Assembly (NCBI GenBank): GCA_964572255.1
Contig: CAZNEE010000001.1
Location: forward strand, 66,223-130,222
Source of the DNA: an uncultured Planctomycetia bacterium
Lineage (GTDB): Bacteria > Omnitrophota > Gorgyraeia > Tantalellales > Tantalellaceae
Reading direction: 5' to 3'
DNA length: 64,000 nucleotides
Part shown: positions 10,391-42,200 of the stretch, piece after piece
Numbering within the stretch: the stretch's first letter is position 1
Layout of the letters: every line of letters begins with the position of its first letter
The notes under the pieces: model-generated
The model's input: only the letters and a program-made list of their open reading frames with translations
The model's database searches: none
Told to the model about the DNA's origin: nothing
Program-made: the position numbers and the translations under genes

Positions 10391-12002
10391 TATTGTTATG
10401 AAACTGATATCCATCGTGGTTATCCTATCTCTCAGTGTGCCCGATTCGGCCATGGCACTGGCTCCCGCGAACAGATTTAATCCGATCGAGGATGCGGAAG
10501 AAAGGCAGGCCTGGGATGAAGAAACGGTCAGGAGCGTTAAAGCAGGCGAAGTGCTCGGTAAATCCTTCAGGAACAGGGTCGCTTTCCGTGATATGAGTAT
10601 TTTGATAGGGAAATACCTTCATTCGGGCATATCAAAATACACTCTCGTTCAGGAAATTAAAGAACATATAGACGCGGCAGAACTTGCTTTGAGCAAGACA
10701 CACCGGGATCCGCTCCTGGCGGGGTTTGAGATCGATGAATTGGAATATCGTGAAGATGAGAATGCATTTTATCTGCCTTTATACCGACAAGGAAAAAAAG
10801 CGTTTTATTACAAGTATTATACGGAAAAGGACGAAAAGAACCCACCCCACATCACGATCCCCCTTGGTAACGGAGAGTACGTTTATGTTGATGTGGTAAA
10901 GATCCTTCCGGATGAAGAAAATGAAGTATCGATAAACAATAAGGAAATGTCATCGGAGGAAGAGCAAAACATGTACATAGAATTAATGCTCAGGTTGAGG
11001 AAAGAATACCCCTGGCGTCAGTGCGCGGAACTTTCGAGCATACTGAAAGGCGAGCTTGAAAAAATGGGGGTAAAAGCCACAGTGTACACTACCCCAGTAT
11101 TTCTTGAACATTATAATATTGATCATGTCTGGGTTGTGACCGAGAAGGGATGGACACTGGATGCTTATCCGGAAGGTTCCAGGATGCCTAAGAAATTTGA
11201 TCATTTATGGAAAGAGACCAAAGGAGTTATAGCATTAGGCCCCGACTCCATCGGAAAATACCCGTATAATTCCGAAAGAGTTGAGATGGAGGTTGGTGAA
11301 GAGATAATAGGATATTTTTCAAAACGCGGATCCGAGTCTGAAGGGTTCGGTTCGATGGAAAAACTTGCCGCTGAGAGATCAATAGAACCCACTCCGGGAT
11401 CAGAGAAAAAACATGCTGTTCTTTTTAAAGATGCTGTTAAAATTAGCCAGGTAAGGGAAGAGGAGAAGATTTCATTTATCGCTCTTGGTACAAGCTGGAT
11501 CAAAGGCTATAAGAAGGGCATATTCCTTCAATATGATGCCTTGAATCCCCTGATCAAGTCTGTCAGAAAATTTTGTGAAGATAATGGCATACGTTTTGTA
11601 GAAGGGGACGATGAAACGATAGTAGGGGCCGTAAAAGATATTAAAGAAAAAGACCCCGGCGCCAGGGGCGTGGTATTGGCCGGCGAAGGTGTTGTCAATA
11701 TTCTTGAGGAATGTTTTGAAAATGCAGGCCTTGAGAACGATGACAGTGTTTTATTTGCCGGCGTTGACAATGGAAATCTCACCGTCGATAGTTATATAAG
11801 ATTTTTAGAGATGTTAACGATTGCGTTAAGATTATCAGCACGCGATTCTGTAAATGAAAATATCATAAAAGTTCTCCAAGTAAGATATCCGCAATTGGGA
11901 TTAGAGCTTGTGCATGGCAGACGCATTAAATTCATTCCCAAAGCCGAACCCCTGGACTATGAACTGTTCAAAGAGATCTGCGAAGTTCAAATCTGCGCTT
12001 AA
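10356..12002 (+). CDS. Hypothetical secreted protein (548 aa) with a putative transglutaminase-like cysteine-protease core (Cys in WRQCAEL, His-x-Trp in DHVWVV, Asp in GWTLDAY). The start at 10356 overlaps the stop of the upstream giant ORF by 35 nt; an alternative start is at 10398.
   Basis: ORF track. N-terminal signal-peptide-like KRKR...MKLISIVVILSLSVPDSAMA|LAP. A GAGGT Shine-Dalgarno-like sequence lies 13 nt before 10356. The core motif resembles G.C...H.W.E...GW..D of the Transglut_core family. Confidence 0.7.
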   Translation: MKLKRKRLDHCNIVMKLISIVVILSLSVPDSAMALAPANRFNPIEDAEERQAWDEETVRSVKAGEVLGKSFRNRVAFRDMSILIGKYLHSGISKYTLVQEIKEHIDAAELALSKTHRDPLLAGFEIDELEYREDENAFYLPLYRQGKKAFYYKYYTEKDEKNPPHITIPLGNGEYVYVDVVKILPDEENEVSINNKEMSSEEEQNMYIELMLRLRKEYPWRQCAELSSILKGELEKMGVKATVYTTPVFLEHYNIDHVWVVTEKGWTLDAYPEGSRMPKKFDHLWKETKGVIALGPDSIGKYPYNSERVEMEVGEEIIGYFSKRGSESEGFGSMEKLAAERSIEPTPGSEKKHAVLFKDAVKISQVREEEKISFIALGTSWIKGYKKGIFLQYDALNPLIKSVRKFCEDNGIRFVEGDDETIVGAVKDIKEKDPGARGVVLAGEGVVNILEECFENAGLENDDSVLFAGVDNGNLTVDSYIRFLEMLTIALRLSARDSVNENIIKVLQVRYPQLGLELVHGRRIKFIPKAEPLDYELFKEICEVQICA

Positions 12003-24200: not shown

Positions 24201-27200
24201 TTATTAAAGGAGATGAAAGGTGCGGATCAGCATGCAAGAGATATAATCTTTAAGGTCATTAAGAAAATAGACTGGGAACCCGGAACTGTTGAGGAAAAAA
24301 TCTCATATTATACCGCTAAGGGAGATATTGAAAAACTGGTCTCTTTAAGAGAACCGGCCATAGGGGCTTTGTTGGATATATTGGAGGATGGAACCATAGA
24401 GAATAAAGCCGCAGCCGAAGAGGCGCTTGGCAGGATCAAAGTTCCTAAAACGGTGAAGGTAAAAGCTGAAAAGGATGAGCCCACTGAAAAGGATCCCGAA
24501 CTTGCCGAAACTACCATCTCTGGAATTTGTCCTCCGGCTAAATCATTCTCGACGTTAATACAGGACTTAAAAAGTTATAAAGCAGGGACACGTTTGGATG
24601 CGGCTAAAGCTTTGGGGGATTTGGGGAATAGAGATGCCGTGCCCTATCTTATTGAGATGTTGCACTGGAAGATACCATATGAAAATGATCATTTAACGCC
24701 GGATTGGTCTCCGACTAAAGCTGACGTAAGAAAGAAAGCTTTAGAGGTCCGCTCAGCTGTAGTGGAAGCTTTGGGGAAACTCAAAGATCCGAGGGCTGTT
24801 GATCATATTTTAAGTATAGCGACAGAACGCAGTTCATCGCACGGCTATATCCTGACAGAAACGGCAGTTATTGCCCTGGGGAAAATAGGCTCGCCGAAAG
24901 CCGCAAAAAGTATTATAGAGACTTTGGCTGATTGGAGTTATAAAGATATATCAATCGAGGCTTTAGTCAATATAGGCAAGCCGGCAGTTCCTGATCTATT
25001 GGAAGGAATTAAGACTAAGGGCGAGCGCAGCAGCTATACTCGTGCTCGTGATTACAGTAAAAATATCCGTGCATTTTGCGCTGAAGCTTTAGGAAGAATA
25101 CAGGATGAAAGGGCCTTAAAGCCTCTTATAAAGGCTTTAAGGGATGGAGACAGACTTGTTCGAGAACATGCCGCTATTGGATTGGGATATTTAAAAGATA
25201 GCAAAGCTTTGCAGCCCCTCCTCAATGCCTTAAAAGACAAGGAAAGTGATGTCCGTTCCGCTGCGGCGATAGCTTTGGGAAGAATAGAGGATGAGCGCGC
25301 TTTCAATGCCTTGATAAAAGCTTATAAAACGGAGAATAAAGGATACGGCGAGGAAGAATCTCTTGTCAGGGCGATAGGACATTTTAATAATTTTCTGGCA
25401 ATAAATATTTTAGCGAGTCATGCGGAAGAAGGGACTTCTGATCTCAATAAGTTCATTTCAGAAAGATTAGTCGAAATAGGCGAGCCGGCTGTTAAGTTCT
25501 TGATAAGACGTATAAATTATGACGAAGCCAGAAATATATTAATCAAGATCGGTGATCCCGCGATAAAGCCCATTCTGGAAATCTTTAGAAATGGCGATCG
25601 CCAACAGCGCATTAGTGCATATACGGCTCTTAAGAGGATGGATAATCTTCCCAAAGGGCCGTTCATCGAAAAGCTCGGACATAAGGATCTTCTAATGCGT
25701 GAACAATCCATTGAGATATTGACCAAATTAGGATGGGAACCCGGCACTCAGGAAGAAAAGATCTATTATTATATTGCCAATAAGGATTATGACGCAGTGT
25801 CAAAAATAGGCGAACCCGCAGTGGATGTCCTTATTGAAGCTTTGGAATATGAAGATGTAGGGTCGAGAGAGAACGCTGCCAGGATTTTAGGAGAACTCGG
25901 CAGTAAAAGGGCCGTTTTACCTCTTGCCAATATTTTGGAAGATAAAGATCTTAGAAATGATGTTTCCGCAGCCTTGAGAAAGATCGTAAAGACATCTGAA
26001 GCTTTAGAGGAGTTGGAGGAAGCTTATAAAGTGGGAGACAGGGAAAGAATAGATGCTCTTGAGAAGATCCTGACGGAGATCGATAAACCTGCTCTAGTTA
26101 CATGGAAGCAGGAGAGGATGAAGAAACAAGTCCCAGCTTTTAAGAAATACCTCACCCTGGGCGGTATCAGCTTGCTTGTCCTGACTCTCTTAGGCGGAGT
26201 TATTGCTGCGATAAGAAAAGTCTCAAAAGTCAAAAAAACCAAAGCCGAAAAAGATGACTCCGGTCACGCTTTTAGGGCTTTAAGCGGAGTGGCAGCTTCG
26301 GGTATAGCTCTGCTGTTTACAGGAGGGGCTTTTGTAGGTGTTTTTTATGCATGGAGCGCCGGGGGATTGGTGCTTAATATCGCAGGAGGGGCTGCTTTAT
26401 CTTTCGGCATTTACCTGGCCGTAGTTTCAGCGAGGTATTTTTTCTTGGGTAGAGCCACTTATATTGCCATGCGCGATGAAAAACTATCCTTTAAAGACGC
26501 TCTCACTATACCCATAGCAACAGCTAACATATCCCGCCATCGCCACAAAGCATATGAAGGTCTTTCATATAAAAATAAAAAATTGATCGACCTGCACGAG
26601 TCTTACAAAAGCCATTTTATAGGCATGCTCGCTTTAATGTTTTCGTTCATTCCGGGCCTGGTAAGCTCCAAGGCAATTAACAGGCTTACAATGATATCCA
26701 TTCTTTCTATGACGGTTTATAAATTGTGCGTTTGGAATGCGGCTTCAGCGTTTGCTTCCGGCATAATAACGAATCTTTTGGTGGTGCATCTGGCTTGGCA
26801 GGTTTTAATTTTCATGAGAGTTATATTTGAGAAGTTTTTCGGGACAAGTTGGGGGTACTTGCACGAAGGCTCCGAGAGCTTTATATCGCTTTCCATGATA
26901 CTTGTAAACGGCGCTTTTCTTTATTTAGGTCTCCTGAACCCCGCGCTTTTATCCCCTGTTGTTCTATTTTTCGCTCTTGCCGTTCTTATGTATGCAAATG
27001 ACGATCATCAGTACAGAAGCAGCGTTATAGAATTTTCCTTTTTGCCGATCGTTCTTTTCTTGGTACTTGGCGTATCTTTATTTACCAAGGTAAAAATGGC
27101 TTCCATGGATACCGTTGAAGTGATGAAAACAGCGGTGCAAGTCAAAGACGTCAGGAATCCGCGCAATATGCGTTACATGATGAGAAGATACTGGGCCGCA

Positions 27201-30200
27201 GAGGTTTTAGCGAACAGAAAAAAGGAAGAAGTGATACCGCAGCTTGTCAGTGAACTGAACAATGAAAATATGGATATAAGAGAGATCGCCGCTGAAGCAC
27301 TTTATAAATTGAACTGGGAGCCCAAAAACGCCGAAGAGGAATTTCTGTATCATGTTGCCGGGAGAGATATTGAAAAATTATCCTCTTTAGGCAAGGCCGC
27401 CACCAAGCCCCTGTTGGACATTTTAAAAGAGGGGAATAGGGATGAAAAGATCGCCGCCGCAAAAGCTATCGGCAGAATTAAAGACCCCGAGACGGGCCCG
27501 GGACTCCTGGATGCTTTAAAAACCGCATCAAGCAAATATTACGGAGATCCGAAACTGGAAATAGTTTTGATCGAGGCTATAGGAAATATAAGATTCGGTA
27601 AAGCCGTACCGCTATTATTAAATGAGCTTAAAGAGGGAAATACTGCGGCAAGGAAGGCTCTTGTTAAAATAGGCGAACCCGCTGTAGAGCCTTTGGTGAA
27701 GATGCTCGAACATGAGAAAACAGTGTTTAAGCGGGAAAAGTATGAGGGAATATTAATAGAAATAGGCAAGCCGTCAGCAGCTGTTGAAAGACTTCTGGAA
27801 GGTGGATCTTTCCATAACCGTGAGTCAGCCGCGAAGATACTTTTCAAGATAGGGCTTTACACTAAAGAGCTCAGGATAAAACGCTGCAAAGCAGACCTTA
27901 AGGATGAAAACTGCAGCGATATCGCCAAGGCTAAAGCGGAGGAAGCGCTTCGTAAGCTTGGTGAAGTTCCGGAAGAAGGAAAGACATATAAAGATATATG
28001 GGATTCGGAAGAAGCTCGAAAAGAAAAGATCGGTAAGTTGATCAAAGATTTTGAAAGCAACGATGAGAAAAAGCAGTCCGCTGCTGTAAGAGAGCTGGTA
28101 AGAATAGGAAAACCCGCCGTTCTTGACCTGATCGAAGCTTTGCAGGAAAATTTTGCTCCTGTGGAACAGTCCGCGGCTAAAGCTCTTGCGGAAATAAAAG
28201 ACCCCAGAGCTATCCAGCCTTTATTTGATAAGATGGAGAATGACGATTTTGACGAGACGAGAATGGTTGCGGCCGAAGCGCTCAAACAGATGGGCTGGGA
28301 ACCTAAGACCGATCATGAAAAAGCCGTTTATTATATCGCGATCCAGGCCTGGGATAAATTAGTTGAAATAGGCCCGGCCGCTGTTCCAAAAATTATTCCG
28401 CGGCTTAAGGATGATTCACCGCGCGTAAGGATCAATATTATTAACACGTTAGGAAGGATCAAAGATCCGAGCGTCATTACGCGTCTTATCCAGTCATTAA
28501 GGGATGAACCTATAAATGAAAATGTTCAGTGGAATAAGGAGCATTACGCAGAGGTGTTGGGAGCGCTAAAAAGAGCATTAAAAGCTTTTGGTGAAGAGAT
28601 AGTTCCTCATCTTAAGAGGGAACTTAAAGAAGGCAATGGGAAAAGCAAAAAATGGTCTATAGATATCCTTGAAGATGCGGGAGCCTTAAGTAAAACCGAT
28701 CTTTTAGAGGCTTTAAAGGATGAACATTATTCCGTTCGGGAGTTTGCGGTACTGGCTTTAGGTCGGAGAAATGACCCCTCAGTTATCGATAGACTGATAG
28801 AGGTTTTTAATGCCGAAAAATTTGAGGTCAAGAAATTTTCAAAAAGCGGAGGTTTTGCTGTCAGGGAAGCGGTTGTCGTTGCTTTAAGCGATATCGGCGG
28901 GGAAAAGGCGGCCGGGTTTCTTATAAAGGCTTTAAAGGATAAAGACTGGGATGTACGCGAAAAGGCCGCAACGGGACTTGGAAAGCTGGAAGAAAAGAGA
29001 GCGGTCAGGCCTCTTATAACAGCTTTAAAGGATAGTAATGTTGATGTAAGGAAACAGGCAGCATGGGCATTGGGTCAAATAGGCGGTAAAGAGGCGATCA
29101 ATGCGCTTCTTGGTGCTTTAGAGGATGATGCTAAAGATGTTCGCGAGGCGGCAAAAGACGCTTTAAGAAAAATAGTGATCGCGGGAGAGAAGCTCAAAGA
29201 GCTCGAAGAAGCTTATAAGAAAGAAGACAGAGAAAAAATAACGGAGATCGAGGACATATTAAGTATCGTCAATAAAGACGCGCTTGAAGAGTGGAAACAA
29301 GATCGGATGAAAAAGGAATTTCCGAAGTTCGGTAAGTATTTAACTGTCGGCGGTATTATAGTTTTTCTTTTTGCCCTGATAAGCGCATTCGGGATCGCTG
29401 TATGGAAGACGATCAAAAAGCGCAAGAACCTTCTTCTAAGCATACTTCTTGCCGTTACATGCGCCGGAGCTTTTTATTATTTGAACGAAGCTTTTCAATT
29501 TGCTGATGAGGGCGGGATCTTTTCTTTGGCCGGTGCTCCTTTCTTTCCTGTCGGCGGGATCATAACGGAAGGCGGAATTGATCCGATCCTTGCTAAAGAA
29601 ATGACAAAGTTCCATAAGCTGATGGTGAAGTCCGCTAAGAAAAAGATAATAGGGCAGGACCTTCGCGCTCCTTACGAGTTTACCAGAAGGGACAGAAGAA
29701 GATGGGCGAATTTCATTAATAAATACAGAAGTGAGATGGGGATAACGAAGGCCTTCATTAAAGGGGCAAGGTATGTTTACGGCGACAGGATGCGCACTCC
29801 CGACGATGAAGAAAAATTCATAAAGATCTTTAAGTCTTTGGATCTTAAGGCTATTGCCGATGCTGACCCGGTGGATGTTGATCTTGAAGACCTTCTTAAG
29901 ACGGGGAATATAGAATATTTTACCGAACTTATAGGAAGCAACCCTGCGGCTTTATATTCTTTCTGCGTGAGGTCAGACGATGATGTCGTTAAAGAAATAA
30001 CGGATATGATTTCAAGCGAGGATATAGATGCCCAGAAAAAAGGCATCTTAAGCTGGGCGTTCCTGCCGGACGATGTTGCGGAATACCTTGTTGCTTATGG
30101 GTTACATTTTGATGACCACAGGCTGATCGAAGCCGCGGTCCGGGTAGCGGGAAGAAAAAAAATCTCTAATTTCAACTCTCAAATACTGAAGTTCTCCAGG

Positions 30201-33200
30201 AACGGAGATATGGAGCTGGCCGCATCATCTTTAGAGACTTTAGCGGAAACAGGTGACGCCGAGATCGCCAGTGAAGTATTTAAGGATCTCATGACATCCG
30301 GTGATCAGCTTTTTAAGATATTCAAAACAAGAGCCAGGGTAGTGGCGCTTCTGGGTCACGACAAGGATGAATACATCGAAAAGTTCCTGAGATCCCTTGA
30401 GAATTCTTTAGGCGCTAATTTCCCTCAGGAAGCAAGGGATGTTCTGGTGGACGCGATCGTGGAATTGGGCGGCAGAAAGATAGCGGAAAATAGCTTAATT
30501 GCCATACAGCATGCTGCAGCCGGCAGTGTCAGGTCTGATGTTAATAAAGTTCTTTTAAGACTAAAGCAGTCACAAGGGATGGGGAAGAACGATCATTTGC
30601 ATTTTGCCGATCAAGAGGTTGTTGAGCTGGGGAAAAAGCTAAAAGGGATCTCCAGAAGCATTTCATCAGGTTTCAGAAGAGCTTTAATTGAGAACTCAGC
30701 GCGTTATCAGGATTTTTCCGAGAATCCCGAGATCTTCTACAGGAACGGAAGATCATTACAGTTCATCGATACCAAACTGCCCATAAACGGGAGAGATGAA
30801 GATAAAGGCTTTGTCCCGGATGAATCCACGACCCGTATCGTACCTATATTAAGAACGGTGCAGGACCTTGAGAAGATAGCCCAGGCGGCAGAGATGGAAG
30901 ATCCTCTGCTTCTTGTGGGCGAAACGGGTGTAGGGAAAACAACACTTATAAGATACCTGGCAAGGCTCAGCAACAATAACGTCCGAAGGTTCAACCTGAA
31001 CGGCCAGACCGATAAATTCGAATTTATCGGCGGCTATAAACCCGAACAATATACCTTATCCAGGGATCAGGCTTACAACGTTGTTGAGGGCCTGTTGAAA
31101 AAGGAAACGGGTCACTCAAAAGAAGAGATCGTAAGAGCTGTCAGGATCATAAGCGGTCAGGATAAAACTTGCGAACAGGCCAAAGATATCCTGCGCCAGG
31201 CTTTTGAGAACAAAAATAGCGAAACGATTTCAGCTATCGCCGAAGCTGTGATGAACAAGTCATTTGAATTTAAGTGGCATTACGGCGTGTTGATAGAGGC
31301 CATGAGGAGAGGTCATTGGCTGATATTGGATGAGATAAACCTGGCCGAACCCGAGATCGTTGAAAGGATCAGGTATCTTTTGGACGCGCATTCCCATCTG
31401 AAACTAAGTGAATACAACAATGAGAACTGGATCGATTCACGTGATTATGATGAGATGGTCGCAAAATACATCAAAAAGCATGAAAGGTCCGGGAAAGACA
31501 AAGAAACGCTTACGAAAGAAATTGTTGAAGATCTCACCAGGCAAGGCATCCACAGGATCCATCCCAATTTCAGGCTTTTTGCCACTATGAACCCCTTCGG
31601 GTATGAAGGAAGAAAAGAGCTTTCTGCGGCGCTCATGAACAAGTTCAATGTTAAATACATAAAACAGTTCGAGCCGGATGATATTAAAGGTATCTTAAAG
31701 ACCAAGTATAATTTCAGTGAAGATCTTTTGGATAAGATCATAAGCATTCATTTTGGATTGACCGATGTATCGGGCGTAGGCGGAATGCTCGGCAGGAATG
31801 AGGGCATTACTTATTACTATACGATAAGACACGTCTTCAGATTGGCTGAGAGGTTGAAAAGGGATTCTGAGAATACAGGAGATACTGTTATAAAGGATTA
31901 TCTGCTTCAAAAAGAAATTATTGAAATTTACGGAGACGGACTAAGGACTGAGGATGATGAAAAGATATTCAGCAGCATTTTATATAAAGTTATACCTTCA
32001 TCCAGGTTCATGAAGAACGATACATCTAAGAAAGTAACGGATAACACCGAAGAAGGGACCGTTAGAATAGGCGATGTGGTTTTACCCGTAAATCCGGATG
32101 GAGGCAGTTTAGTCCCCGGTGAAGATTCAAAGCTTCTTCTTGTAAAGACGACAAGAGAATGGCTTGAGAAAATAGCAAAATGTATCCTGATGGATGAAAA
32201 ATCTCTTTTTATCGGACCTACAGGCGCCGCAAAGACCTCAATGCTTCGTTATATAGCTCACCTCACTAACAATGAGTTTATAAGGGTCAACCTTGATTCT
32301 TATGCCGACACGTCGGATCTGATAGGTAAGTACATACCCAAGGAAGACACGAAGGGCGAACTTAGATGGGAGGATGGCGTTCTTATCAAGGCCATGGAGA
32401 AAGGACAATGGATGCTTCTTGATGAATTCAATCTGGCCGATCCGGATATTCTGGAGAGGATAAATTCCCTTCTTGACGATGACGGGGCGCTTGTTGTTAC
32501 TGAACATAATCACGAAAGATGGGTGCCGCACGAAAAGTTCGACAGACTTAAAGCCGCGGGACACGATATGAGCGGCCTGAGAAGGATCCATCCCAATTTC
32601 AGGATATTCGCCGCGATGAACCCCGAAAGATATGCGGGAAGGAACAGGCTTTCAAGGGCGATGATGAACAAGTTCAATGAAAAATGGATCAGCGGTTACA
32701 TGAGTGAAGATGAAATAAAGCATATAGCATATTTTTACGCTACTGACGGATCTATCATGGAGGAAGAACCCCTGGAGGGAGAGATCGCGGATCAAGCATC
32801 AGCAATATTAAGCGCAGTTTATCTGCGGGTAAGAGAGATGCTTGAGAAGAACGAGCTGGGTAGAGGCAAGATAAGCGGGATAAACGCCGAAGAATATAAT
32901 TTCAGTCTCAGGGACCTTAAAGATTGGAGCAAATTTGTCAGAAAATTGCATGGTGAGATGGGGATAAACAGGGCGATAATCGAAGGAGCGCTGTACGTGT
33001 TCAGGGACAGGCTGGAAGGGATAGATGATAAAGGTATTTTCAGGGACGAAATTTTAAAGCGAATAATACAGATAGGCAACGGGCATGAAAGTGTGGATAT
33101 AGACAGATTAGATGTTCTCGAGGAAGAAGGAAAAAGCGCTGAAGAACTTATAACCGATGTCAAGGTCACGGACGATGATATGAATGTGCTCCAGAGGACC

Positions 33201-36200
33201 GAGATCGCGGAGATCGTTGATATGTTCGATAACTTGTGCATGAATTTCCCTAAATATTTACATGATGATCAGGGATTGAACGAGATCCGCAGAAGACTGT
33301 TGACCCCGGGCAGCGAAGCTGCCGGCATCAGGGGTTTTGCTCTTCTTCCGGAGGATGTTGCGGAACTGCTGCTGGATATCGTCCTGGACAGCGTAAATCC
33401 CGAACTGTTGATGGCGGGATGTGAAGTTGCCGGCCATTTAAAGATTGATTCCTGTAATGATAAGCTTCTTTTCCTCCTGAAACACGATGATTTTAATGTC
33501 AGGGCAGCCGCGGCATTTGCGATCGAGAATGTGGGTTTAAGATTTAGGGATAAAGATCTGGGAAGGCCGGAAAAACTGGAAAAGAAAGTGTTAGGAAAAA
33601 TATTATTGACGGAGAAGGAAGGGGGTCAGTCGGTCGGGGATTATCTCGGACTTAAGTGGATCTTTAGGCGTTTGTGGATACCGTGCCTCGGGACAATGAT
33701 CCCGTTTCTTGGTCTTCTTTTCTGGATGCCCCTGCCGTATTGGCAGGCTGCGGGCGGACTCCTTTTCTCGCTTTCAGCAGTATATATTTTCTCTTATATA
33801 GTTCTTATAAAATTCGCGTATCCCTTTATATACGGCGAACAATCGGAAGCAATTAAAAAGCGTTACGAAACTTTACCCTTAACATTAGATGATTATTATA
33901 AGTTATATGAGCCCGGCAACAGATATAAGATCAAACTTCCTTATCATTTGAAATCAAAGCCTGTTTTCGGCGAAGACAGTAAACTCAGAGCTTATGCGCT
34001 TCCTATCTTTTCCATGGCAGGCATGGTTTTTGCCGCTTTTACAGGTTACGGCGGTTATATCGGAGGGTTTACAACCGTCTCAGGCATGATAACACTTGTT
34101 ATATTTGAAATTTTGATGGCAGTGATGGGATTATTTTTCAGCATAGGATTTTTTGTATTGCTGACCAGCTGGATCGCAACCATGGGGGAAGTTTTCTCCA
34201 AGCCTTTAATGAAACGGTTTTTAAAAGGGCCGGAACCGGAAGATGACGGATTTAAAATAACGCTTCCTTATTCTGAAGGAACGATCGAATTGTTCGAGCG
34301 ATACAAGCAGGATCAGGAAGCGAAAAGAAAAGCTTTATTGAGCAAAGGTTTGGCCGGTGAGGCGAAAAGTCCGGAAGATATTATAGGGGTCATGAAGGAC
34401 GAAAAAATAGTTATAAAAGACGGAAAGATAATAATAGACAATATAGAACTTGATATGAAAAATTCCCCGGAAGCTCTTGTACCTGACAAAGAAGCGGCAA
34501 AGCTTATAAATACCATCTCGGCCGTTAGAAATATGAAAAAGGTCGCTATATCACTTTTACTTAATGAACCGGCTCTTCTGGTCGGAGAAAGCGGTGTAGG
34601 TAAGACTTCGGTCGTCAGGTACCTGGCATCTCTTGTGAACTGGGGGTTCAGGAGGTTCAATCTTAACGGCCAGACAGAGAAAACCGAACTTATAGGAGGT
34701 TTTAGGCCGGACGAGAACGGTCAGTTCAAATGGGTTGACGGCATATTGATCAACGCTATGAGGGAGGGGAGCATTCTGGTCCTTGATGAGATCAACCTGG
34801 CAGAATCACAGGTGCTTGAAAGGATAAATTCCCTTCTTGATGATGACAGGCATATAAGCATTCCGGAGAAAGACAACATGCAGTGGATAGATTCGAGAAA
34901 ATACGATCTCAAGGTAAAGGAAGTAACAGAAAAAAATAAAGTGACCGAAGAAGAAGCCCGAGAGATCCTCACTGAAAAGAAAATTTTCAGGATCCATCCC
35001 GATTTTCGTCTTATTGCCACGATGAACCCCGTGGAATACGCCGGCAGAAATATTCTTTCACCGGCTTTGATGAACCGTTTCAAGGTCAAATGGATCGATG
35101 AGATGTATTCGCTGGAAAGGGTGGCCATATTCAACAATATGTTCAAAAATTCCGCGGGAGGGCCTCTTTTGGATCTTAATATAGTTGATAGGCTGGACTG
35201 GCTGCATACAAGGATCAAGGATACCGCTCAGGCCCGGAGTATCGGGGAGCAGGAGGTCGACCCTTATTATTATTCAATAAGAGATTTTATCAAACTCGGG
35301 TTTAGGATAAAAGAAGCGATCGGTAAAAAAGAGAGGGACGAGGACCGTAAACTTAATAGAGAAGAAAGAACGGATATAGCGATAAGAGAATCCGTATTAG
35401 TTTATGTGGACAGGATAAGGGATGCTGAGGAAAGAAACAGGCTTATCAGCGTGGTTGAGGATTTTCTGGGGGGTTTTGACACATCCGGGATTGAAGCCGC
35501 GGGAATAAGTGATACACCGGATAAAGTAAGGATCGGCGATATTGTTCTTGATAAGAACGACGGCAGGGGCCCTTATGTTCCGGGCAAAAAGTCGGTTCTT
35601 TTTGATACTCCTACAACGAATCGTTATCTTGCCAAACTCGCCGAGATGGTGCATTTAAATGAAACACCGCTTATGGTAGGGCCGACCGGATCCGCCAAGA
35701 CCTCTATAGTAAGATATCTTTCCTATTTAACAAAAAACAATTTTGTGAGAGTGAATCTTGACGCGCAGACGGACACTTCCGAGATAATCGGATCATATAT
35801 TCCGGTCGAGGATCGGGAAGGGGAATTCGAATGGAGGGACGGTCTTTTGGTGACGGCTCTTAGAAAGGGTTACTGGGTCCTTTTGGATGAGCTTAACCTG
35901 GCCGATCCTGAGATATTGGAAAGGATCAATTCGCTGATAGATGACGAGGGTTGTCTTATAATTACCGAGCATGAAGGCGAGAAGATAATGTCGGCCAAAG
36001 AGTACGACAGAAAGGTTGCCGAATATGTAAGAGGGAGAAAAATAGTGTCCGATCCAAGGAGTGAAGAGGAACTCACCCTGGAGGCGAAGGAGCATTTAGA
36101 GAAGGAAAAGATATACAGGGTACATCCCAACTTCAGGCTGTTCACAGCCATGAACCCGGCAAGGTATTCGGGCAGGAACAGGCTTTCGCTTGCCATGAGA

Positions 36201-39200
36201 AACAAGCTCAGCGAGATATGGATCTCCGGAGAGATGGATGAACATGAATACAAGAGAATAATTTCGGGATATCTTACGGACAATCCCAGCAAAAGAAAGA
36301 TGGTCATATCCATGACAGAGATCCATCTTGGCATGCTTGAGGTCGTTAATATGCTGGATGAAGGCACCATAGATAAATACCAGTTCAGCATGAGAGATAT
36401 TAAGGCATGGGCCAATTATGTGAACATGTACGGTCCCAAAATAGGATGGGATGAAGCTTTTGCAAAAGGGGCTGTTTATATTTATTATGACCGGCTGACA
36501 AAAGCGGAACATAGAAAAGAGTTCATGAGCTTTTTCAGCGAGCTGCTTAAAGAAGCCTCCTATTCTAAGGCCTATAAGCATGCCGTTAATTTTACGGCGC
36601 GCAGCATAAGCACAAAAGATAAAGAAAAAGTTACCACGAGGAATAACGGCTTCATTGATGTGTTAGAGACGACTTTAGAGGTGAATCGATCTCCGATATC
36701 AAAGGAATTGGTCCCGAAAGAAGATGTTGCCAAACTTATTCATACGGATTCGGCGATGAAGGATCTTGAAAAAGTGGCCCAGGCCGCTTACCTGAACGAA
36801 CCTTCGCTCCTTATCGGGGAAACGGGAGCCGGCAAGACATCCCTCGTAAGATATCTTGCGCACCTTACCAATAACGCCTTCCAGAGGTTTAATATAAGCG
36901 GACAGACCGAAAAGAGGGATTTTATCGGAGGATATCATCCTGATGAAGATGGTAAGTTTGTATGGAAAGACGGTATTTTGATCGAAGCCATAAAGAAGGG
37001 CGAATGGCTTGTTGTTGATGAGATCAACTTAGCCCCGTCACAGGTCATTGAAAGGATGAATTCCCTTCTCGATGATGACGGTTTTATAGTAGTTACCGAA
37101 CACAAGGGCGAAAAATATATAAGGCAGTCTGAATACGATAAGAAAGTGGATGAATACGCTTATATAATAATGCAAAAAGAAAAGTGTTCGATGGAAGAAG
37201 CTGTCAGAAAAGCAAAAGAAGAGCTAACAAAAGAGCTAGTCTTCCCGATACATCCCAATTTCAGGTTCTTCGCGACCATGAATCCTTCCGAATATGCCGG
37301 AAGACAGGTTTTCTCAAAGGCCCTCATTAACAGGTTCAGGGTCAAATGGATAGATATTCCCGATAAAGAAGATGTCCGGGAGATACTGAAGGAGAAGTAT
37401 AAAGGCAAACTCCCGCAAAAAATAATAAATAAGGCGATCGAAGTCCATTACGAGATGATAGAAGGAAGCAGCGGGATAGATGAAGATAAAGTTCATTATA
37501 CCATCAGGCATCTTATCAGGTGGATGGAACGGTTAGTTCTTGGTTTAGAGAAAGAATGGGATACTGATGTTAATAGGCTTGCGTTTACCGAAGGTGCGGC
37601 CATATATGGCGATGGCCTGCCGATCGAAGAGGACCAGGAAGATAGTTTAAGTAATGAATACGGGGGGATAGATAATATCCAGTTATTATATAATATGCTG
37701 GAAGAGGCGCTTGAGGCCAGGTTCGGAAAACCCCAGGGCGAGGAAAATATAGAGATCACTGAAGATGAGGATCTTGTCAGTTTCGGAGAGGTCAGTTTAC
37801 CTGAAAATAAAGAAGAGAGGAAGTTCTATGTATCCGGTCCCGAGCTGAAAAATACCGGATCCATGAAAAGATTCCTTAAAAGGATAGCAAGATCCGTTTT
37901 GGCGGTTGAGAATATCCTGCTTCTGGGTCTTACCGGCGGAGGGAAATCGGAACTTGTACGGCACCTGTCGGATTTGACGAATAATAATTTTATCGCGATG
38001 GATCTTGACGGGCAGACTGACGTATCACAGCTTATCGGCCAGTATGTGCCGCTTGAGGGCGAAGACCGTTTCCAGTGGGTGCAGGGAAGTCTTCTTGAGG
38101 CCATGGAACACGGTGCCTGGATACTGATAGATGAGTTGAATCTGGCGGAACCCGAGATCATAGAAAGGCTGAATTCTTTGCTTGACGACGACGCTTCGCT
38201 TACTGTTAACGAGCATAAAGGAGAAAAATGGATCCCCGCTAAGCTGTACGATGAATTAGAGGCCAATGGACATGATATGACCTATTTGAAGAAGATCCAC
38301 GAGAATTTCAAGCTTTTCTGCGCGATGAATCCCGCGCATTATGCGGGAAGGACAAAGATGTCAAAGGCAATGCTTAATAAGTTTTATCAGCTCTGGATAC
38401 CCCAGGAAGGTACGTTCGAAGAGGAGGCAGAGATCACGGTGCATTATCTCGATGCAGAAGCTTCCTTTTCCGATGTCTCGGAAGAAAAACTCCGGATGGA
38501 AGGGGTGATAGAAAAAAATACCGAGCTGGCGGAAGCTGCAAGATATGTAAATTCTTCGAGTTTATACCTCGGGATGAACGGTTTCGGCGCTTTGGCTTAT
38601 ATTTTTGATCAGATAAAGAGCTGGAGGAAAAAGCGAAAAGATGACCAGAATAAAAAGCTGGAGCTCAAGAGTTTAAATCCGCAGTATTTGTTGGAGAAGT
38701 CCGGCGAAGAAGAAGATGAAGACATGGGGTGGCTCAAGAAAATAAGGATGAAAAGGGGCGATAAGAAGGTAAATAAAATACTTAAAAATGTTTCTTTCAT
38801 GAAAGAATTTTATTCCGGAGAATTCAACACGGATATCAGGCCGGGCGCCGGATGGGCGATAGACTTGTCGACAACGCCTCCCACGCTTATATATCCTAAA
38901 AAAGATCTGGAGGAAAGAAGCGCTGATTATATATGCGGCGTTACAATGCATGAAACCGGTCACAGGGATATAAGCTTTTTGGTCGAAAAGTTCTTTAAGA
39001 AAGAAAGCACGAGGTTTTTACTTAATGCCGTGGAAGATCCCAGAGTGAATAATTGGGGCATGGTCAAGGTCCCCGGAACTAAAAGGTACTTTAAGACTAT
39101 GTATGATGAAGATTCTCCCGCCAGCGGCAGAATATCCATGGCTGATTTCTCAAAAGTGCTGCCTCACATACAGTTTGGCCTGGGGATAATACACCACTGG

Positions 39201-42200
39201 TATAGCGGCAAGGAGCATCCTTATATTAAGAATCCGCGTGTTCTAGAGGCTCTTCAGGAAACAAGACCAGCAGTTACTGAGGCATATAGCCTGCTTCCCG
39301 GGACCATACGCGTAAAAAGGTATGATAAAGAACGGATAGTGGTCGATTCTTCGACGGGAAGGAAAAGGTTTATTCCTTTACCTCCTGTCGGACATACTGT
39401 GAGTGTGGGAAAAACCGATGTTCAAAGTGTAGAAAGAGTGGATGAAGATACTATTATTGTGACTACACGAAAAGAATCAAGAGAGATATCCGTTCCCGAG
39501 GAAGGCGGATGGGAAACATTATTGAATAACATAAAACCCAGTAACGATGAGAAGAAAGCAATAGCCGTAAAATCAGCTAAGATAATAGAGGAAAAGGTTC
39601 TGCCGGCTTATGAAAAGCTGGTGCAGGAGTCCATAGACCAGATGAAAAAGCAGATGTCGGGCCAGGGATCAGGTCAAAGCGGGCAGGAGCAGGATCAGCC
39701 GGGACAGGGAGGCGTGGAAGCGCAAGCTGAAGAAGAAGTAGAGAAGCAGTCAAAAGAATTTGCCGATGACCTGGAAGGAAAACTGCCCCGGGGTGAAGAG
39801 GAAAAGAAAGAAGAGATGAAGAAAAAGAGAGAAGAAAGGTGGAAGAAGCCGCAGGATGAGGGGAAATCCAAAGCAGGCGATAAAGATGAGGAGAAAGGTG
39901 AAGGCGGCGGCGGAGATGAAAAAACGGAAGAAGATAAAGAAGGAGGAGATGAAAAGGGAGAAGGCGCCGGAGAAAAGGATGAAGAAAAAGACCAAAAGGG
40001 CGTAAGTTCAGGTGGAGAGGACAGCGCGGAAGATAAAAATGAAGTAAGTTCTGAATCCAGCGAAAGAAGCAGCGGGGGAGAAGATAAAAGCAGATCGGAT
40101 TCAGCAGAAGAAAAACGCCAGAAGAGAGAGCCCTCAGAAGACGGTACTAAAAAAGAAAGCGCTGCTGATGCGGAAGGCGAGAAGCAGGAAACCGCCCAGG
40201 AAGAAGATCGCTCAAAAGGCAAGCCGTCCCCGGTCGATTTTGGCAGAAGACTTACAATGAAAGACAGGCTTAAGCTGGACATAAAATTAAGAGAGAAGAT
40301 AAAAGTAGAACATAAAGACAAGTATGATAAATATTATTCGCAGGCAATCCGTTTGATCGAACGCCTGTTCGGTACTCTTGACAACGAGCTTGTGAAGGAT
40401 AAAAAACCGAGGTATAAAGGCTGGTTTGAGGCGGGCAAGCTTCGCAGGATGAATAAAGCCATGACAATGAAGAAGACGGGGGATATGCGGATATGGGAAA
40501 GAAGAAGCAATCCTACAAAGAGAAGTTTTAAATTCAGCATCGTTCTTGATGAAAGCGGATCCATGGGCATGGGACATTCTGAATCTGAGACTTCCCAGGA
40601 TGCCCTGAAAGCCCTTGTACTTTTCATGGAAGTCTTATCCAGGCTTGATATTGATTTTTCAGTTATCGGTTTCAGTGACGCTCCTTCTGTTCATAAGAGT
40701 CTGCAGGAAAGTTTTAAGTACAAGAACAAGGACGAGCTGATCAATGAGATCATTGAGTATATGGGGAGAGGATTGGGGACATATGATGCCGCGGCCGTAA
40801 ATCTGGCCGTGAATCAGCTTGAGCAGGAATCCAGCGATTCAAAAGTCATTATTGTCATTACTGATGGTTATGGAAACGGTCCCGTTGAAGTGGAAAAAAT
40901 GATAAGAGAGGCAAGGAAAAAAGGTATTGAAGTCATAGGCGTTGGTGTAGGCAACGGCATGCAGTATGTTAAGAGCGTTTATCATCCGAATGCCACTGTC
41001 CGGACAATGGAAGAGCTGCCCGGTGTGATCGCGAAACTTTTGATCGATATCATTGTATATAGAAAATACACGCCAATTGATCATGAAGAAAAAAATCAGC
41101 CTATTAATGCAATAAAACTTTCTATCGCTTCACTTGTGAACATTTTTGCCGGGATCGGATCCATGTTTCTAACGGATCTTGCCCCGGGTTCCGTTCTTCC
41201 TTGGATGTTGGGGATATTTTCAGGAGCTTGTATCGCAAGTGCGCTTATATATCTTGTTACAACAATGTTTATAGAAATGGTCTTCCAGATCGGCAGGGAA
41301 ACGGCCTTTCGTTCCGAGGAAAGAAAGATAGCCAGAACTGTAACTTATCCGGACGGGACAAAACGGATAGAGACAGAACCTGAGTTTGATAAACTTCCCT
41401 GGATAATAAGGAAATTTATCATCATGCATGAAAAGGTCCACGTTGCCGGTTTCGGCGAATTTATGGCATACGCGTTCCCATGGATCGGTCTTTTTGTTAA
41501 GACATCAGGGAAAAATAAAAAGTCCATGATCGGCGGCGATCCGGAAATTGCCATAGGCATTCATAAGAACGTTTCTGATGAAGTATTTACTGAAATTATT
41601 AATATTCTGGATGAAAAAGTAAATATTATAGTAACTGAGAGTGAAGAAGAATTTGCGGAGGCGATCGAAGATGCAAATTTTACAGGTATTTTTATCGACG
41701 AGAGCATAACACTGGATTCAATAATGACCGAGAAGGTAAGAAAAGATATCTATTCAATAAAGTTAATGAAGACGTATAAAGGGATTTTAAAGGTAAACGA
41801 AATAAGCCCTGAAACTAGGGACAAAATAGCTGAGACTATAAAGAAAATCATACCGGAGATAGACAAAGTGGATATTGACAGCGTGCTGGGCACAGCACGT
41901 GAGATCATGGCAAAGGATGCTGATCTTTACAAGAATATCATGAGTTTACAGGGCCTGGTCGCAAAACGAAAAAATGAGATAGCTTCTGTCTATAATAATA
42001 TGAAGATGGACGAGGCGGTAAACTACGGCGGTAATCTGGTGGTTGCTACAACTGAAAGAATAGCGGAATTCGACCCGTTTGCGTTCGATAACATGCAAAA
42101 AACAGAAGGCCGGAGCATCGTAAATTACTTCATTTACGGTGATAACATCAAGGACATCGATGAGGCAAAGAAGTTCGCCAGAGCGAGCGGGTATAAGGGG

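What the first reader, a model, noticed from the sequence alone, without database searches (positions are those of the whole stretch)
30850..41050. Midasin-like cassette (six tandem AAA+ domains, acidic linker, MIDAS/VWA) inside a bacterial membrane protein
Six consecutive AAA+ units share the same signature set:
- a GxxGxGK(T/S) P-loop;
- a G.W..LDE.NLA...(I/V)LER.NSLLDD sensor/Walker-B region;
- an (I/V)HPNFR.FA.MNP...GR..LS.A..N(K/R)F arginine-finger region.
These are the hallmarks of the dynein/midasin/MoxR (AAA_5) clade. They come in three pairs: AAA1/2, AAA3/4 and AAA5/6, each odd member followed by an (R/G)IGD(V/I)VL...PTG connector. After them come ~190 residues rich in D/E/K/G and then a VWA domain with an intact DxSxS MIDAS motif (DESGSMG). 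That domain order, six AAA then a D/E-rich linker then MIDAS, is the defining architecture of eukaryotic midasin (Rea1/MDN1), a ribosome-assembly remodelling motor. Here it is fused to a membrane-embedded HEAT-repeat giant. That suggests an ATP-driven MIDAS 'hand' pulling on a ligand at the membrane.
Basis: partly seen in the sequence, partly recalled or inferred. Interest (0 to 1): 0.85.

Follow-up and report, generated by a model that had tools for sequence, protein, structure and literature searches.

The report
Bacterial single-chain six-AAA ring with MIDAS
A 10,132-residue membrane protein of an Omnitrophota-like bacterium carries six dynein/midasin-type ATPase domains, a zinc-protease-like domain, a floppy acidic tether and a metal-dependent 'sticky' domain in one chain, a layout so far described only for eukaryotic midasin and dynein but built here from a widespread bacterial two-gene system.

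Summary
The ORF at 12219-42617 (10,132 aa) contains six AAA_5 units (Pfam E 2e-144). All six keep Walker A, Walker B, sensor 1 and the arginine finger. They are followed by a 211-aa tether (31% D/E) and a VWA domain with a complete MIDAS motif (DESGS...T...D).

- A conserved four-helix membrane insert with a HEAT repeat splits the array 2+4.
- An orphan even-type lid lies upstream (aa 5778-5883) and unit 6 has no lid. This is a cyclic permutation that gives six lids for six cores.
- A conserved HExxH...EDPR zincin-like domain sits between unit 6 and the tether.
- The midasin N-terminal and linker domains are absent.

The cassette is not a transferred midasin. Many bacterial and DPANN-archaeal genomes encode a stand-alone HExxH-tether-VWA protein beside an AAA_5 ATPase with one unit or two tandem units (A-B). 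Omnitrophota giants carry (A-B)x3 fused to that partner.

The VWA model matches Rea1/MDN1 MIDAS domains best, then NorD.

I read the cassette as a membrane-tethered, single-chain NorQD/midasin-like remodeller, possibly with proteolytic activity. I rate it a new variant of a known kind. It is relevant to how single-chain AAA+ rings arise.

The parts
12219..42617 (+). Giant ORF of 10,132 aa. It has an N-terminal signal-anchor-like segment, repeated modules of transmembrane clusters plus HEAT repeats (aa ~790-5760), then the AAA-protease-VWA cassette and a C-terminal tail.
29550..29867 (+). Orphan AAA lid ('lid0', aa 5778-5883). It is even/B-type and carries the sensor-2-like motif YEFTRRD. It is the proposed lid for unit 6 (cyclic permutation).
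   Evidence: Pfam AAA_lid_7 E 1.8e-5. Unit profile positions 218-305. It scores 56 bits against the even-lid profile and 31 bits against the odd-lid profile.
30834..32051 (+). AAA unit 1 (A/odd type, aa 6206-6611) with its lid. It has a ~70-aa insertion after the H2 region.
32130..33140 (+). AAA unit 2 (B/even type, aa 6638-6974) with its lid.
33141..34499 (+). Insert between units 2 and 3 (aa 6975-7427). It holds one HEAT repeat (aa ~7049-7106) and about four transmembrane helices arranged as two hairpins (aa 7152-7322, nt 33672-34184). K/R-rich stretches lie on both flanks and in the middle loop.
   Evidence: Conserved in P0123, P0124, P0125, P0128 and P0129.
34500..35510 (+). AAA unit 3 (A/odd type, aa 7428-7764) with its lid.
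35595..36611 (+). AAA unit 4 (B/even type, aa 7793-8131) with its lid.
36732..37721 (+). AAA unit 5 (A/odd type, aa 8172-8501) with its lid.
37842..38624 (+). AAA unit 6 (B/even type, aa 8542-8802). Only the large domain is present. No lid follows it.
38730..39458 (+). HExxH zincin-like domain followed by a small beta domain (aa 8838-9080). HETGH lies at aa 8911-8915 (nt 38949-38963) and NAVEDPR at aa 8936-8942. H, E, H, E, D and R are invariant in 11 relatives.
39606..40238 (+). Low-complexity acidic/polyampholyte tether (aa 9130-9340): 31% D/E, 19% K/R, 14% G.
40242..41096 (+). VWA/MIDAS domain with an N-terminal helical extension and a conserved basic loop (aa 9342-9626). DESGS lies at aa 9444-9448 (nt 40548-40562), with T9521 and D9549.
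   Evidence: Pfam VWA E 5e-18. Alignment A4. Model. Foldseek hits to Rea1/MDN1 MIDAS and NorD. Motifs.
41118..41288 (+). Transmembrane hairpin after the VWA domain (aa 9634-9690).
41289..42614 (+). C-terminal tail of 442 aa with no Pfam match. It is not conserved in relatives.

Best explanation
The cassette is a complete AAA_5-plus-VWA remodelling machine written into one polypeptide and stapled to the cytoplasmic face of the membrane.

Proposed origin. The machine derives from a widespread prokaryotic gene pair. One gene encodes an AAA_5 ATPase with one unit or two tandem units (A-B). The adjacent gene encodes a zincin-like domain, a flexible tether and a MIDAS-VWA domain. In the Omnitrophota lineage the A-B pair was triplicated to (A-B)x3. 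The last lid was relocated to the N-terminus. The partner protein was fused to the C-terminus. A four-helix membrane anchor was inserted between units 2 and 3.

Proposed mechanism (inferred, not shown):
1. Six large domains and six lids close into a hetero-hexameric ring, as in midasin and dynein. lid0 completes the ATP site of unit 6.
2. The tethered VWA domain docks on the ring, probably with a conserved basic loop in the pore, as in NorQD, CbbQO and Rea1.
3. Its MIDAS Mg2+ captures an acidic residue of a client.
4. ATP hydrolysis around the ring moves the VWA domain relative to the membrane- and HEAT-anchored body. This pulls on or remodels the client.
5. The adjacent HExxH domain may cleave the client, or the giant protein itself.

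Shown here: domain identities, motif integrity, conservation of the architecture, and the A/B ancestry.
Inferred: ring closure, cytoplasmic topology, VWA docking, and proteolysis.
For: Identity of the parts. Pfam hits AAA_5, AAA_lid_7 and VWA. The PDB sequence search puts midasin first at E 1.7e-117, with per-domain scores up to 80-110 bits, against CobS, NorQ and CbbQ at 25-33 bits.

Active sites. All catalytic motifs are intact in the six units.

Conserved architecture. The order lid0-U1-U2-[TM]-U3-U6-HExxH-tether-VWA recurs in P0123 (7,557 aa), P0125 (6,708 aa), P0124, P0129 and the Omnitrophota loci L015-L020.

Bacterial gene pair. 46 loci encode the HExxH domain. Stand-alone HExxH+VWA proteins of 640-890 aa occur in CPR, Gammaproteobacteria, Elusimicrobiota, Bacillota, UBP9, Anammoxibacter and DPANN archaea. 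The adjacent gene is an AAA_5 ATPase with two units or one unit. Intermediate fusions exist: two units plus HExxH plus VWA in L033 and L044, and four or more units in L028.

A/B ancestry. Profile scores alternate A,B,A,B,A,B in every multi-unit relative that was tested. The reciprocal test agrees.

Lid permutation. The lid order is even-odd-even-odd-even-odd with no lid after unit 6. The same permutation is already present in the two-unit Anammoxibacter and Elusimicrobia proteins.

VWA domain. The model is closest to Rea1/MDN1 MIDAS and NorD. It shares their N-terminal extension, with about 275-290 aligned columns against about 200 for integrins.

Mechanistic precedent. VWA finger-in-pore docking is described for NorQD, CbbQO and midasin (PMC13036017).

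Topology. AAA sites need cytoplasmic ATP. K/R-rich stretches flank the TM hairpins. A 2026 preprint reads Omnitrophota giants as membrane-anchored cytoplasmic proteins.
Against: - No structure of the ring could be computed because the cassette exceeds the 1,200-aa limit. Ring closure and the lid0-U6 pairing are therefore inferences from domain counts and types.
- No client, ligand or UBL-like partner was identified. Gene neighbourhoods of the simpler systems give no consistent functional hint.
- Deep nodes of the unit tree have very low bootstrap support.
- Topology was judged by hydrophobicity and the positive-inside rule only.
- A 450-aa membrane insert inside a ring is unprecedented and might prevent closure. 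In that case units 1-2 and 3-6 would act as separate assemblies.
Confidence: 0.6

Rival explanations
1. It is a true midasin orthologue: either a bacterial copy acquired from a eukaryote, or the direct six-AAA ancestor of midasin.
For: After the Omnitrophota fragments, the next best hits in 5.8 billion proteins and in the exhaustive 1.84-billion search are hundreds of eukaryotic midasins at E ~1e-125 to 1e-145. The units are 29-33% identical to midasin units, which is as close as midasin units are to each other. The MIDAS fold is closest to Rea1/MDN1.
Against: Whole-protein E-values are inflated by summing over six units. There is no colinear AAA1-6 correspondence. The Omnitrophota units form their own group (bootstrap 89) and follow the bacterial A/B types. 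The HExxH domain and the partner-protein architecture are prokaryotic and widespread. There is no midasin N-terminal domain or linker. GC content is uniform across the gene. A second, independent triplication is seen in P0127.
Confidence: 0.07
2. It is a metal-cofactor insertion chaperone, like the chelatases, CobST or NorQD. It would load a metal into a membrane enzyme or into other domains of the giant protein. The HExxH site would serve as a metal-binding or metal-delivery site rather than as a protease.
For: Relatives hit CobT_C and VWA_CoxE, and weakly CobS and GvpN. CobS, NorQ and CbbQ are the next PDB relatives. NorD is the second-best fold match of the VWA domain. NorQD acts on a membrane enzyme.
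Against: All CobS, CobT and GvpN matches are far below the family cut-offs. No cobalamin, NOR, RuBisCO or gas-vesicle genes lie in the window. The invariant HExxH + E/D + R pattern is typical of hydrolytic zincins.
Confidence: 0.15
3. It is an ATP-dependent processing protease. The AAA ring would unfold a client, or segments of the giant polyprotein itself, and feed them to the zincin domain. This is FtsH-like logic and resembles the predicted MoxR-vWA-peptidase systems.
For: The HExxH...EDPR domain is invariant and always sits between the AAA module and the VWA domain. Zhang and Aravind predicted MoxR-vWA-peptidase degradation systems (PMC3495828). Peptidase fusions to the vWA component are reported in MoxR ternary systems.
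Against: AAA_5/MoxR-clade rings are not known to thread substrates. The zincin fold match is weak. No cleavage data exist.
Confidence: 0.15
4. The units do not form one ring. Units 1-2 and units 3-6 are separated by the membrane insert. They would act as separate partial assemblies or would oligomerise between molecules.
For: The 450-aa TM and HEAT insert is conserved. L028 and P0126 encode four units plus HExxH plus VWA in reading frames that are open or begin at the contig end, so their unit number is not settled. Two-unit relatives must oligomerise.
Against: Exactly six cores and six lids are conserved, with matching types. P0127 also has six units with a different split, 4+2, and no TM segments.
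Confidence: 0.1

Closest known systems
Midasin (Rea1/MDN1), the eukaryotic pre-60S ribosome remodelling AAA+ protein
   Same: Six AAA_5 units lie in one chain with midasin-type lids (AAA_lid_7). An odd/even alternation of unit types is present. A flexible charged region precedes a C-terminal VWA domain with a full MIDAS motif. That VWA domain is structurally closest to the Rea1/MDN1 MIDAS domain, including the N-terminal helical extension.
   Different: There is no one-to-one orthology of units. [quoted passage not shown] Unit 6 lacks a lid and an orphan lid precedes unit 1. A four-helix membrane insert lies between units 2 and 3. An HExxH zincin-like domain lies before the tether. All six sites keep canonical motifs. 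The protein is bacterial, membrane-anchored and embedded in a HEAT-repeat giant.
NorQ/NorD, CbbQ/CbbO and CobS/CobT: MoxR-type AAA_5 hexamers with VWA partners
   Same: The AAA_5 core and a VWA partner with MIDAS and an N-terminal extension are shared. NorD is the second-best fold match. Relatives hit CobT_C and VWA_CoxE. The ancestral arrangement is a gene pair.
   Different: In those systems the ring is a homo-hexamer of single-unit proteins and the VWA partner is a separate chain. Here the A and B units are differentiated and concatenated, and the partner is fused. Sequence similarity to solved CobS, NorQ and CbbQ is low at 25-33 bits. The partner's N-terminal domain is an HExxH domain with no Pfam model.
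Cytoplasmic and axonemal dynein heavy chains
   Same: A single-chain six-AAA ring of the same broad clade. Pfam dynein models AAA_6, AAA_7 and AAA_8 give secondary hits.
   Different: There is no stalk or microtubule-binding domain, no N-terminal mechanical linker and no VWA in dynein. The hits to dynein models are weaker than those to AAA_5.
BchD/ChlD subunit of Mg-chelatase
   Same: The order 'AAA-like module, acidic/proline-rich linker, C-terminal integrin-I/VWA domain with MIDAS' occurs in one chain (established knowledge of BchD, not tested here).
   Different: BchD has one degenerate AAA unit and works with BchI hexamers. It has no HExxH domain and belongs to a different AAA subfamily (Mg_chelatase).
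'Archaeovorin'-type giant proteins of Omnitrophota (West-Roberts et al. 2023, bioRxiv 10.1101/2023.11.21.568195)
   Same: Giant, multi-transmembrane Omnitrophota proteins in which HEAT_2 is the most frequent domain. AAA_5 is listed among the top 20 domains.
   Different: That work does not describe a six-AAA ring, a MIDAS domain or the HExxH module. It predicts HEAT repeats to be extracellular. Here at least the HEAT repeat at aa 7049-7106 is on the same side as the ATPase units. Homology to the named archaeovorins was not tested.

Membership tests
AAA_5 (PF07728), the H2-insert clade of AAA+ (MoxR / midasin / dynein) | Profile match above the curated threshold | tested here: met
   475 bits against a cut-off of 22, in 7 stretches.
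AAA_5 (PF07728), the H2-insert clade of AAA+ (MoxR / midasin / dynein) | Walker A, Walker B, sensor 1 and arginine finger in each unit | tested here: met
   All six units carry them. Sensor-2-like (Y/F)x(F/Y)(S/T)xR(D/H) motifs are present in five lids and in lid0.
AAA_5 (PF07728), the H2-insert clade of AAA+ (MoxR / midasin / dynein) | Helix-2 beta-hairpin insert and pre-sensor-1 insert seen in a structure | not tested
   Sequence segments of the right length and position exist.
Midasin (Rea1/MDN1) | Six AAA units in one polypeptide | tested here: met
   Six units are present, but they are interrupted by a 450-aa membrane insert.
Midasin (Rea1/MDN1) | Units orthologous to AAA1-AAA6 position by position | tested here: not met
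   The alignment to Rea1 is non-colinear. All Omnitrophota units form one NJ group (bootstrap 89), separate from the six midasin clades.
Midasin (Rea1/MDN1) | N-terminal domain and ~1,700-aa helical linker between the ring and the D/E-rich region | tested here: not met
   Only about 330 aa lie between unit 6 and the tether, and they form an HExxH domain. There is no match to Rea1 residues ~2,400-4,000.
Midasin (Rea1/MDN1) | D/E-rich region before the MIDAS domain | tested here: met
   211 aa with 31% D/E in this protein. In relatives the tether ranges from 8% to 43% D/E and from 0 to 440 aa, so it is a flexible tether rather than a conserved acidic domain.
Midasin (Rea1/MDN1) | C-terminal VWA domain with the DxSxS-T-D MIDAS motif and a midasin-like fold | tested here: met
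   The motif is complete. Foldseek top hits are 6qt8 and 8ql1 at E 2e-13 to 3e-11, with TM-scores 0.57-0.72.
Midasin (Rea1/MDN1) | Binds UBL domains of Ytm1/Rsa4 and acts on pre-60S particles | not testable with these tools
   No ligand was identified.
MoxR-VWA two-component chaperones (NorQD, CbbQO, CobST) | AAA_5 ATPase functionally coupled to a MIDAS-VWA partner | tested here: met
   The two are fused here. In 30 or more loci they are adjacent genes.
MoxR-VWA two-component chaperones (NorQD, CbbQO, CobST) | Membership of a curated family (CobS, CobT, GvpN, NorQ) by profile cut-off | tested here: not met
   All NCBIfam hits are far below the cut-offs, for example PD_CobS at 45 bits against 558 and GvpN at 97 bits against 267.
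MoxR-VWA two-component chaperones (NorQD, CbbQO, CobST) | VWA 'finger' inserted in the ring pore | not testable with these tools
   The candidate is a conserved basic loop at aa ~9394-9432. It has low pLDDT but contains invariant G, W, P, R and F residues.
Zincin / gluzincin metallopeptidases | HExxH motif on a helix plus a downstream acidic third ligand | tested here: met
   H8911, E8912, H8915, E8939 and D8940 are invariant in 11 sequences. The motif lies in helix 92-108 of the model and is followed by helix 119-140.
Zincin / gluzincin metallopeptidases | Significant fold or profile match to a known peptidase family | tested here: inconclusive

The most novel reading that the evidence does not exclude
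The bacterial family uncovered here consists of differentiated A-B tandem AAA_5 units with midasin-type lids, working with a tethered MIDAS-VWA partner. It may be the prokaryotic sister group, or the ancestral type, of eukaryotic midasin and hence of the midasin/dynein lineage. Concatenation of a whole hexameric ring into one chain would then be a recurrent outcome that happened at least three times: in Omnitrophota giants, in the soluble 4,005-aa P0127 type, and in stem eukaryotes. It would not be a unique eukaryotic invention.
Probability: 0.3. Interest if true: 0.85.

Novelty: new variant of a known kind. Interest (0 to 1): 0.72.

Why it matters
Reviews and structural papers describe midasin and dynein as unusual in having all six AAA+ modules in one polypeptide. 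They place the origin of that arrangement early in eukaryotic evolution, from a MoxR-like precursor (PMC4047620; PMC3495828).

This locus and its relatives show the same solution in bacteria. They also provide a graded natural series: one unit plus a partner gene, two units plus a partner gene, two units fused to the partner, and six units fused to the partner. The series includes a cyclic permutation of the last lid.

This makes the question of how a homo-oligomeric AAA+ ring becomes a single asymmetric chain directly testable with bacterial proteins. It also offers candidates for the prokaryotic relatives of midasin.

In addition, it assigns a concrete, testable machine to part of one of the enigmatic giant proteins of Omnitrophota. 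It argues that at least this part of such giants is cytoplasmic.

Tried and rejected
- A homology search with the full 3,427-aa cassette timed out. A 1,471-aa query worked.
- The HExxH region gave no Pfam, NCBIfam or PADLOC family. I therefore do not file the system under any defence system. PADLOC hits to the AAA units are generic P-loop matches.
- A word-indexed search with the HExxH domain alone returned only two proteins. A pattern scan of GTDB genomes was far more productive.
- NJ bootstrap did not resolve the deep relations between the A and B types, midasin units and outgroups (supports 0-23%). I relied on reciprocal profile scoring instead.
- Assignment of midasin AAA1-6 to the bacterial A/B types was attempted twice. 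With two-unit-protein profiles, AAA2 and AAA4 are B-like in 98/98 midasins and AAA3 and AAA5 are A-like in 93% and 81%. With Omnitrophota odd/even profiles, AAA2 looks odd-like. I treat this as unresolved and do not claim it.
- GETG versus GPTG P-loops are not a reliable A/B marker, because both units of the two-unit proteins have GPTG/GPTA.
- A second HExxH (MHEKVH, aa 9737) in the C-terminal tail is not conserved in any relative. I reject it as a functional site.
- The 'Thermoproteota archaeon' label of P0127 is not trusted, because its contig carries LpxB, ClpC-type, RadA and UvrD genes.
- Gene neighbourhoods of five simpler loci gave no consistent functional association.
- The AFDB fold library was unavailable.
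A 7-row alignment was used instead.

Full report
**What is there**

The window holds a 30.4-kb ORF (12219-42617, + strand) encoding 10,132 aa with no stop codon under code 11. GC content is even across it at 0.42-0.46. The flanking genes are ordinary bacterial housekeeping genes: PolX, LigA, GlmM-type mutase, PtsI and MetK. The same MetK occurs on JGI and ENA metagenome contigs. The closest relatives of the giant protein, at 45-65% identity, are fragments annotated as Candidatus Omnitrophota.

The first 5,700 residues alternate clusters of hydrophobic helices with HEAT_2 / HEAT_PBS repeats.

**Check of the observation**

- Pfam reports AAA_5 (E 2e-144), AAA_lid_7 'Midasin AAA lid' (E 5e-20) and VWA (E 2e-17).
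- A profile built from the units finds six complete units.
- Every unit keeps Walker A, Walker B (hhhhDE), sensor 1 (xxMNP) and the GR arginine finger.
- Odd units (1, 3, 5) are 39-47% identical to each other, even units about 44%, and odd versus even 33-39%. The 'three pairs' are real.
- The tether at aa 9130-9340 is 31% D/E, 19% K/R and 14% G.
- The MIDAS motif is complete: DESGS, T9521, D9549.

All of this is far beyond chance.

1. Units 2 and 3 are separated by about 450 aa containing a HEAT repeat and about four transmembrane helices. The helices form two hairpins, with K/R-rich flanks and a K/R-rich middle loop.
2. An orphan lid domain lies at aa 5778-5883, about 320 aa upstream of unit 1. 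Unit 6 has no lid.
3. The ~330 aa between unit 6 and the tether contain a strongly conserved domain with invariant HExxH and (N)A(V/I)EDPR motifs.
4. A further transmembrane hairpin and a non-conserved 442-aa tail follow the VWA domain.

**Conservation**

The order lid0-U1-U2-[TM cluster]-U3-U4-U5-U6-HExxH-tether-VWA recurs in other giant proteins:

- P0123 (7,557 aa), P0125 (6,708 aa), P0124/P0266 and P0129.
- Six GTDB loci from Omnitrophota MAGs, some labelled Planctomycetia (L015-L020).

A soluble 4,005-aa protein (P0127) has six units split 4+2, the HExxH domain and a VWA domain, but no hydrophobic segments. Its 'Thermoproteota' label is doubtful because the contig carries LpxB, a ClpC-type ATPase, RadA and UvrD.

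**Origin of the cassette**

I scanned one genome per GTDB species for two motifs of the HExxH domain. This gave 46 loci.

- In most loci the domain is the N-terminal part of a 640-890-aa protein that ends in a VWA domain with a DxSGS motif. These loci come from CPR phyla, Gammaproteobacteria, Elusimicrobiota, Bacillota, Vulcanimicrobiota, UBP9, Anammoxibacter, Margulisiibacteriota, Bdellovibrionales and DPANN archaea.
- The neighbouring gene is an AAA_5 ATPase with two tandem units (L023-L027, L029-L031, L053) or one unit (L035-L037, L041, L046-L051, L054, L055).
- The two-unit ATPase of UBP9 also hits the midasin lid model at E 3e-20.
- Elusimicrobial proteins fuse two units to the HExxH-VWA partner (L033, L044). 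L028/P0126 has at least four units.

I built profiles from the first (A) and second (B) units of five two-unit ATPases. They score every multi-unit relative in strict alternation A,B,A,B,A,B. This holds for the giant, Omni16, Omni19, Omni28, P0127 and L044. The reciprocal test with Omnitrophota odd and even profiles agrees.

In NJ trees the Omnitrophota units form one group (bootstrap 89) with odd (85) and even (86) subclades. The P0127 units cluster by type among themselves, which suggests a separate triplication. Deep nodes are unresolved.

**The lid permutation**

- In the giant and its six-unit relatives the order is EVEN(lid0)-ODD-EVEN-ODD-EVEN-ODD, with nothing after unit 6.
- Canonical two-unit ATPases (Bacillota, Vulcanimicrobiota, UBP9, Burkholderiales) have A-lidA-B-lidB.
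- The Anammoxibacter and Elusimicrobia proteins already have lidB-A-lidA-B.

The array therefore contains six cores and six lids of matching types, cyclically shifted. This is what one expects if the chain closes into a ring in which lid0 completes unit 6. It is an inference. The ring itself could not be modelled.

**Relation to midasin**

Against solved structures, midasin is by far the best match (E 1.7e-117). Per-domain scores reach 80-110 bits, against 25-33 bits for CobS, NorQ and CbbQ. An exhaustive HMMER search of 1.84 billion representatives with unit 5 lists Omnitrophota-type giants first and then midasins. Those whole-protein scores are inflated by six-fold repetition.

On a trimmed alignment the units are 29-33% identical to every midasin unit class. 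Midasin classes are 25-34% identical to one another. Six single-unit plasmid AAA_5 proteins are 23-30% identical to the units. The matches to Rea1 are not colinear, and no unit pairs with a specific midasin position.

Midasin units themselves alternate, with 1/3/5 versus 2/4/6 by identity. Their assignment to the bacterial A and B types is not robust. One profile pair calls AAA2 and AAA4 B-like in 98/98 midasins, and AAA3 and AAA5 A-like in 93% and 81%. The other profile pair disagrees for AAA2.

The VWA model (pLDDT 74) is a classical alpha/beta VWA fold with an N-terminal helical extension. Its best PDB matches, in order, are:

| Target | Foldseek E-value |
|---|---|
| Rea1 MIDAS, C. thermophilum (6qt8) | 1.9e-13 |
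| Human MDN1 MIDAS (8ql1; TM 0.58-0.72) | 1.6e-12 to 3.3e-11 |
| NorD | ~1e-10 |
| Integrin I domains | ~1e-8 |

**The HExxH domain**

**Mechanism**

The best-supported reading is a membrane-tethered, single-chain version of a MoxR-type AAA_5 ring with its VWA adaptor. It would work like NorQD, CbbQO and midasin.

In those systems a finger of the VWA domain sits in the ring pore, the MIDAS ion holds an acidic residue of the client, and ATP hydrolysis moves the VWA domain relative to a second attachment point (PMC13036017). Here the second attachment would be the membrane and the HEAT scaffold.

A conserved basic loop just before beta-1 of the VWA domain (aa ~9394-9432) has invariant G, W, P, R and F residues but low model confidence. 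It is a candidate finger.

The zincin-like domain suggests that remodelling may be coupled to cleavage, in line with predicted MoxR-vWA-peptidase systems. No client was identified, and neighbourhoods of the simpler systems are uninformative.

**Prior knowledge and novelty**

[quoted passage not shown] It places that arrangement early in eukaryotic evolution.
- Searches for bacterial or prokaryotic midasin found nothing relevant.
- The giant-gene preprint lists AAA_5 among frequent archaeovorin domains but does not interpret it. It predicts HEAT repeats to be extracellular.
- A 2026 Omnitrophota preprint does not mention these domains and favours a cytoplasmic, membrane-anchored reading of such giants.

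I therefore rate the finding a new variant of a known kind, the AAA_5-VWA remodellers. It has several unprecedented features and clear evolutionary interest.

Noticed in passing
window 128-10390 (+) and 10356-12002 (+): Directly upstream lies another very large ORF (3,420 aa). Its only Pfam hit is an ABC1 atypical-kinase domain (aa 665-872). A 548-aa ORF with no Pfam hit overlaps its end.
   Followed up: partly
window 47428-52926 (+): A 1,832-aa ORF with a Peptidase_C39 domain (aa 665-754) and an apolipoprotein-like helical region. This is a third large, mostly unannotated protein in the window.
   Followed up: no
window 33363-33536 (aa 7049-7106 of the giant): A HEAT repeat lies between AAA unit 2 and the membrane insert. 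It is therefore on the same (ATP-containing) side as the ATPase. This conflicts with the published prediction that HEAT repeats of Omnitrophota giants are exclusively extracellular.
   Followed up: partly
L011 7601-9478; L012 17652-18605: HEAT_2 proteins recur near simpler members of the family. A 625-aa HEAT protein lies immediately after the stand-alone HExxH-VWA gene P0122. A 317-aa HEAT protein lies 5 kb from the soluble six-unit P0127. This hints that the HEAT association is older than the giant fusion.
   Followed up: no
L023 5603-7345 and L024 5849-6955: In a Bacillota MAG and a Vulcanimicrobiota MAG, the two-unit ATPase and HExxH-VWA operon sits directly downstream of a peptide chain release factor gene, preceded by thymidine kinase in L023. 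I could not tell whether this reflects function or shared synteny.
   Followed up: no
L012 (GCA_042576685.1, protein MFC1753351.1): The soluble 4,005-aa six-AAA+HExxH+VWA protein is labelled 'Thermoproteota archaeon'. Its contig carries LpxB, a ClpC-type ATPase, RadA and UvrD, so the contig looks bacterial and probably mis-binned.
   Followed up: partly
window 41427-41441 (aa 9737-9741): A second HExxH (MHEKVH) lies just after the post-VWA transmembrane hairpin. It is absent from all relatives examined, so it is probably fortuitous.
   Followed up: yes
window 29868-30833 (aa 5884-6205) and 12219-14573 (aa 1-785): Two long stretches have no Pfam match: the 320-aa spacer between the orphan lid and unit 1, and the 785-aa N-terminal region that follows a signal-anchor-like segment.
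   Followed up: no
L006 3456-5621; L010 3285-5630: VWA partners of more distant plasmid-borne AAA_5 ATPases (a haloarchaeon and Alkaliphilus) also start with an HExxH motif (AIHEAGHILYTD, AHEAFHILFTD). They do not match the HExxH-domain profile. An N-terminal metallopeptidase-like domain may be a more general feature of AAA_5-associated VWA proteins.
   Followed up: partly
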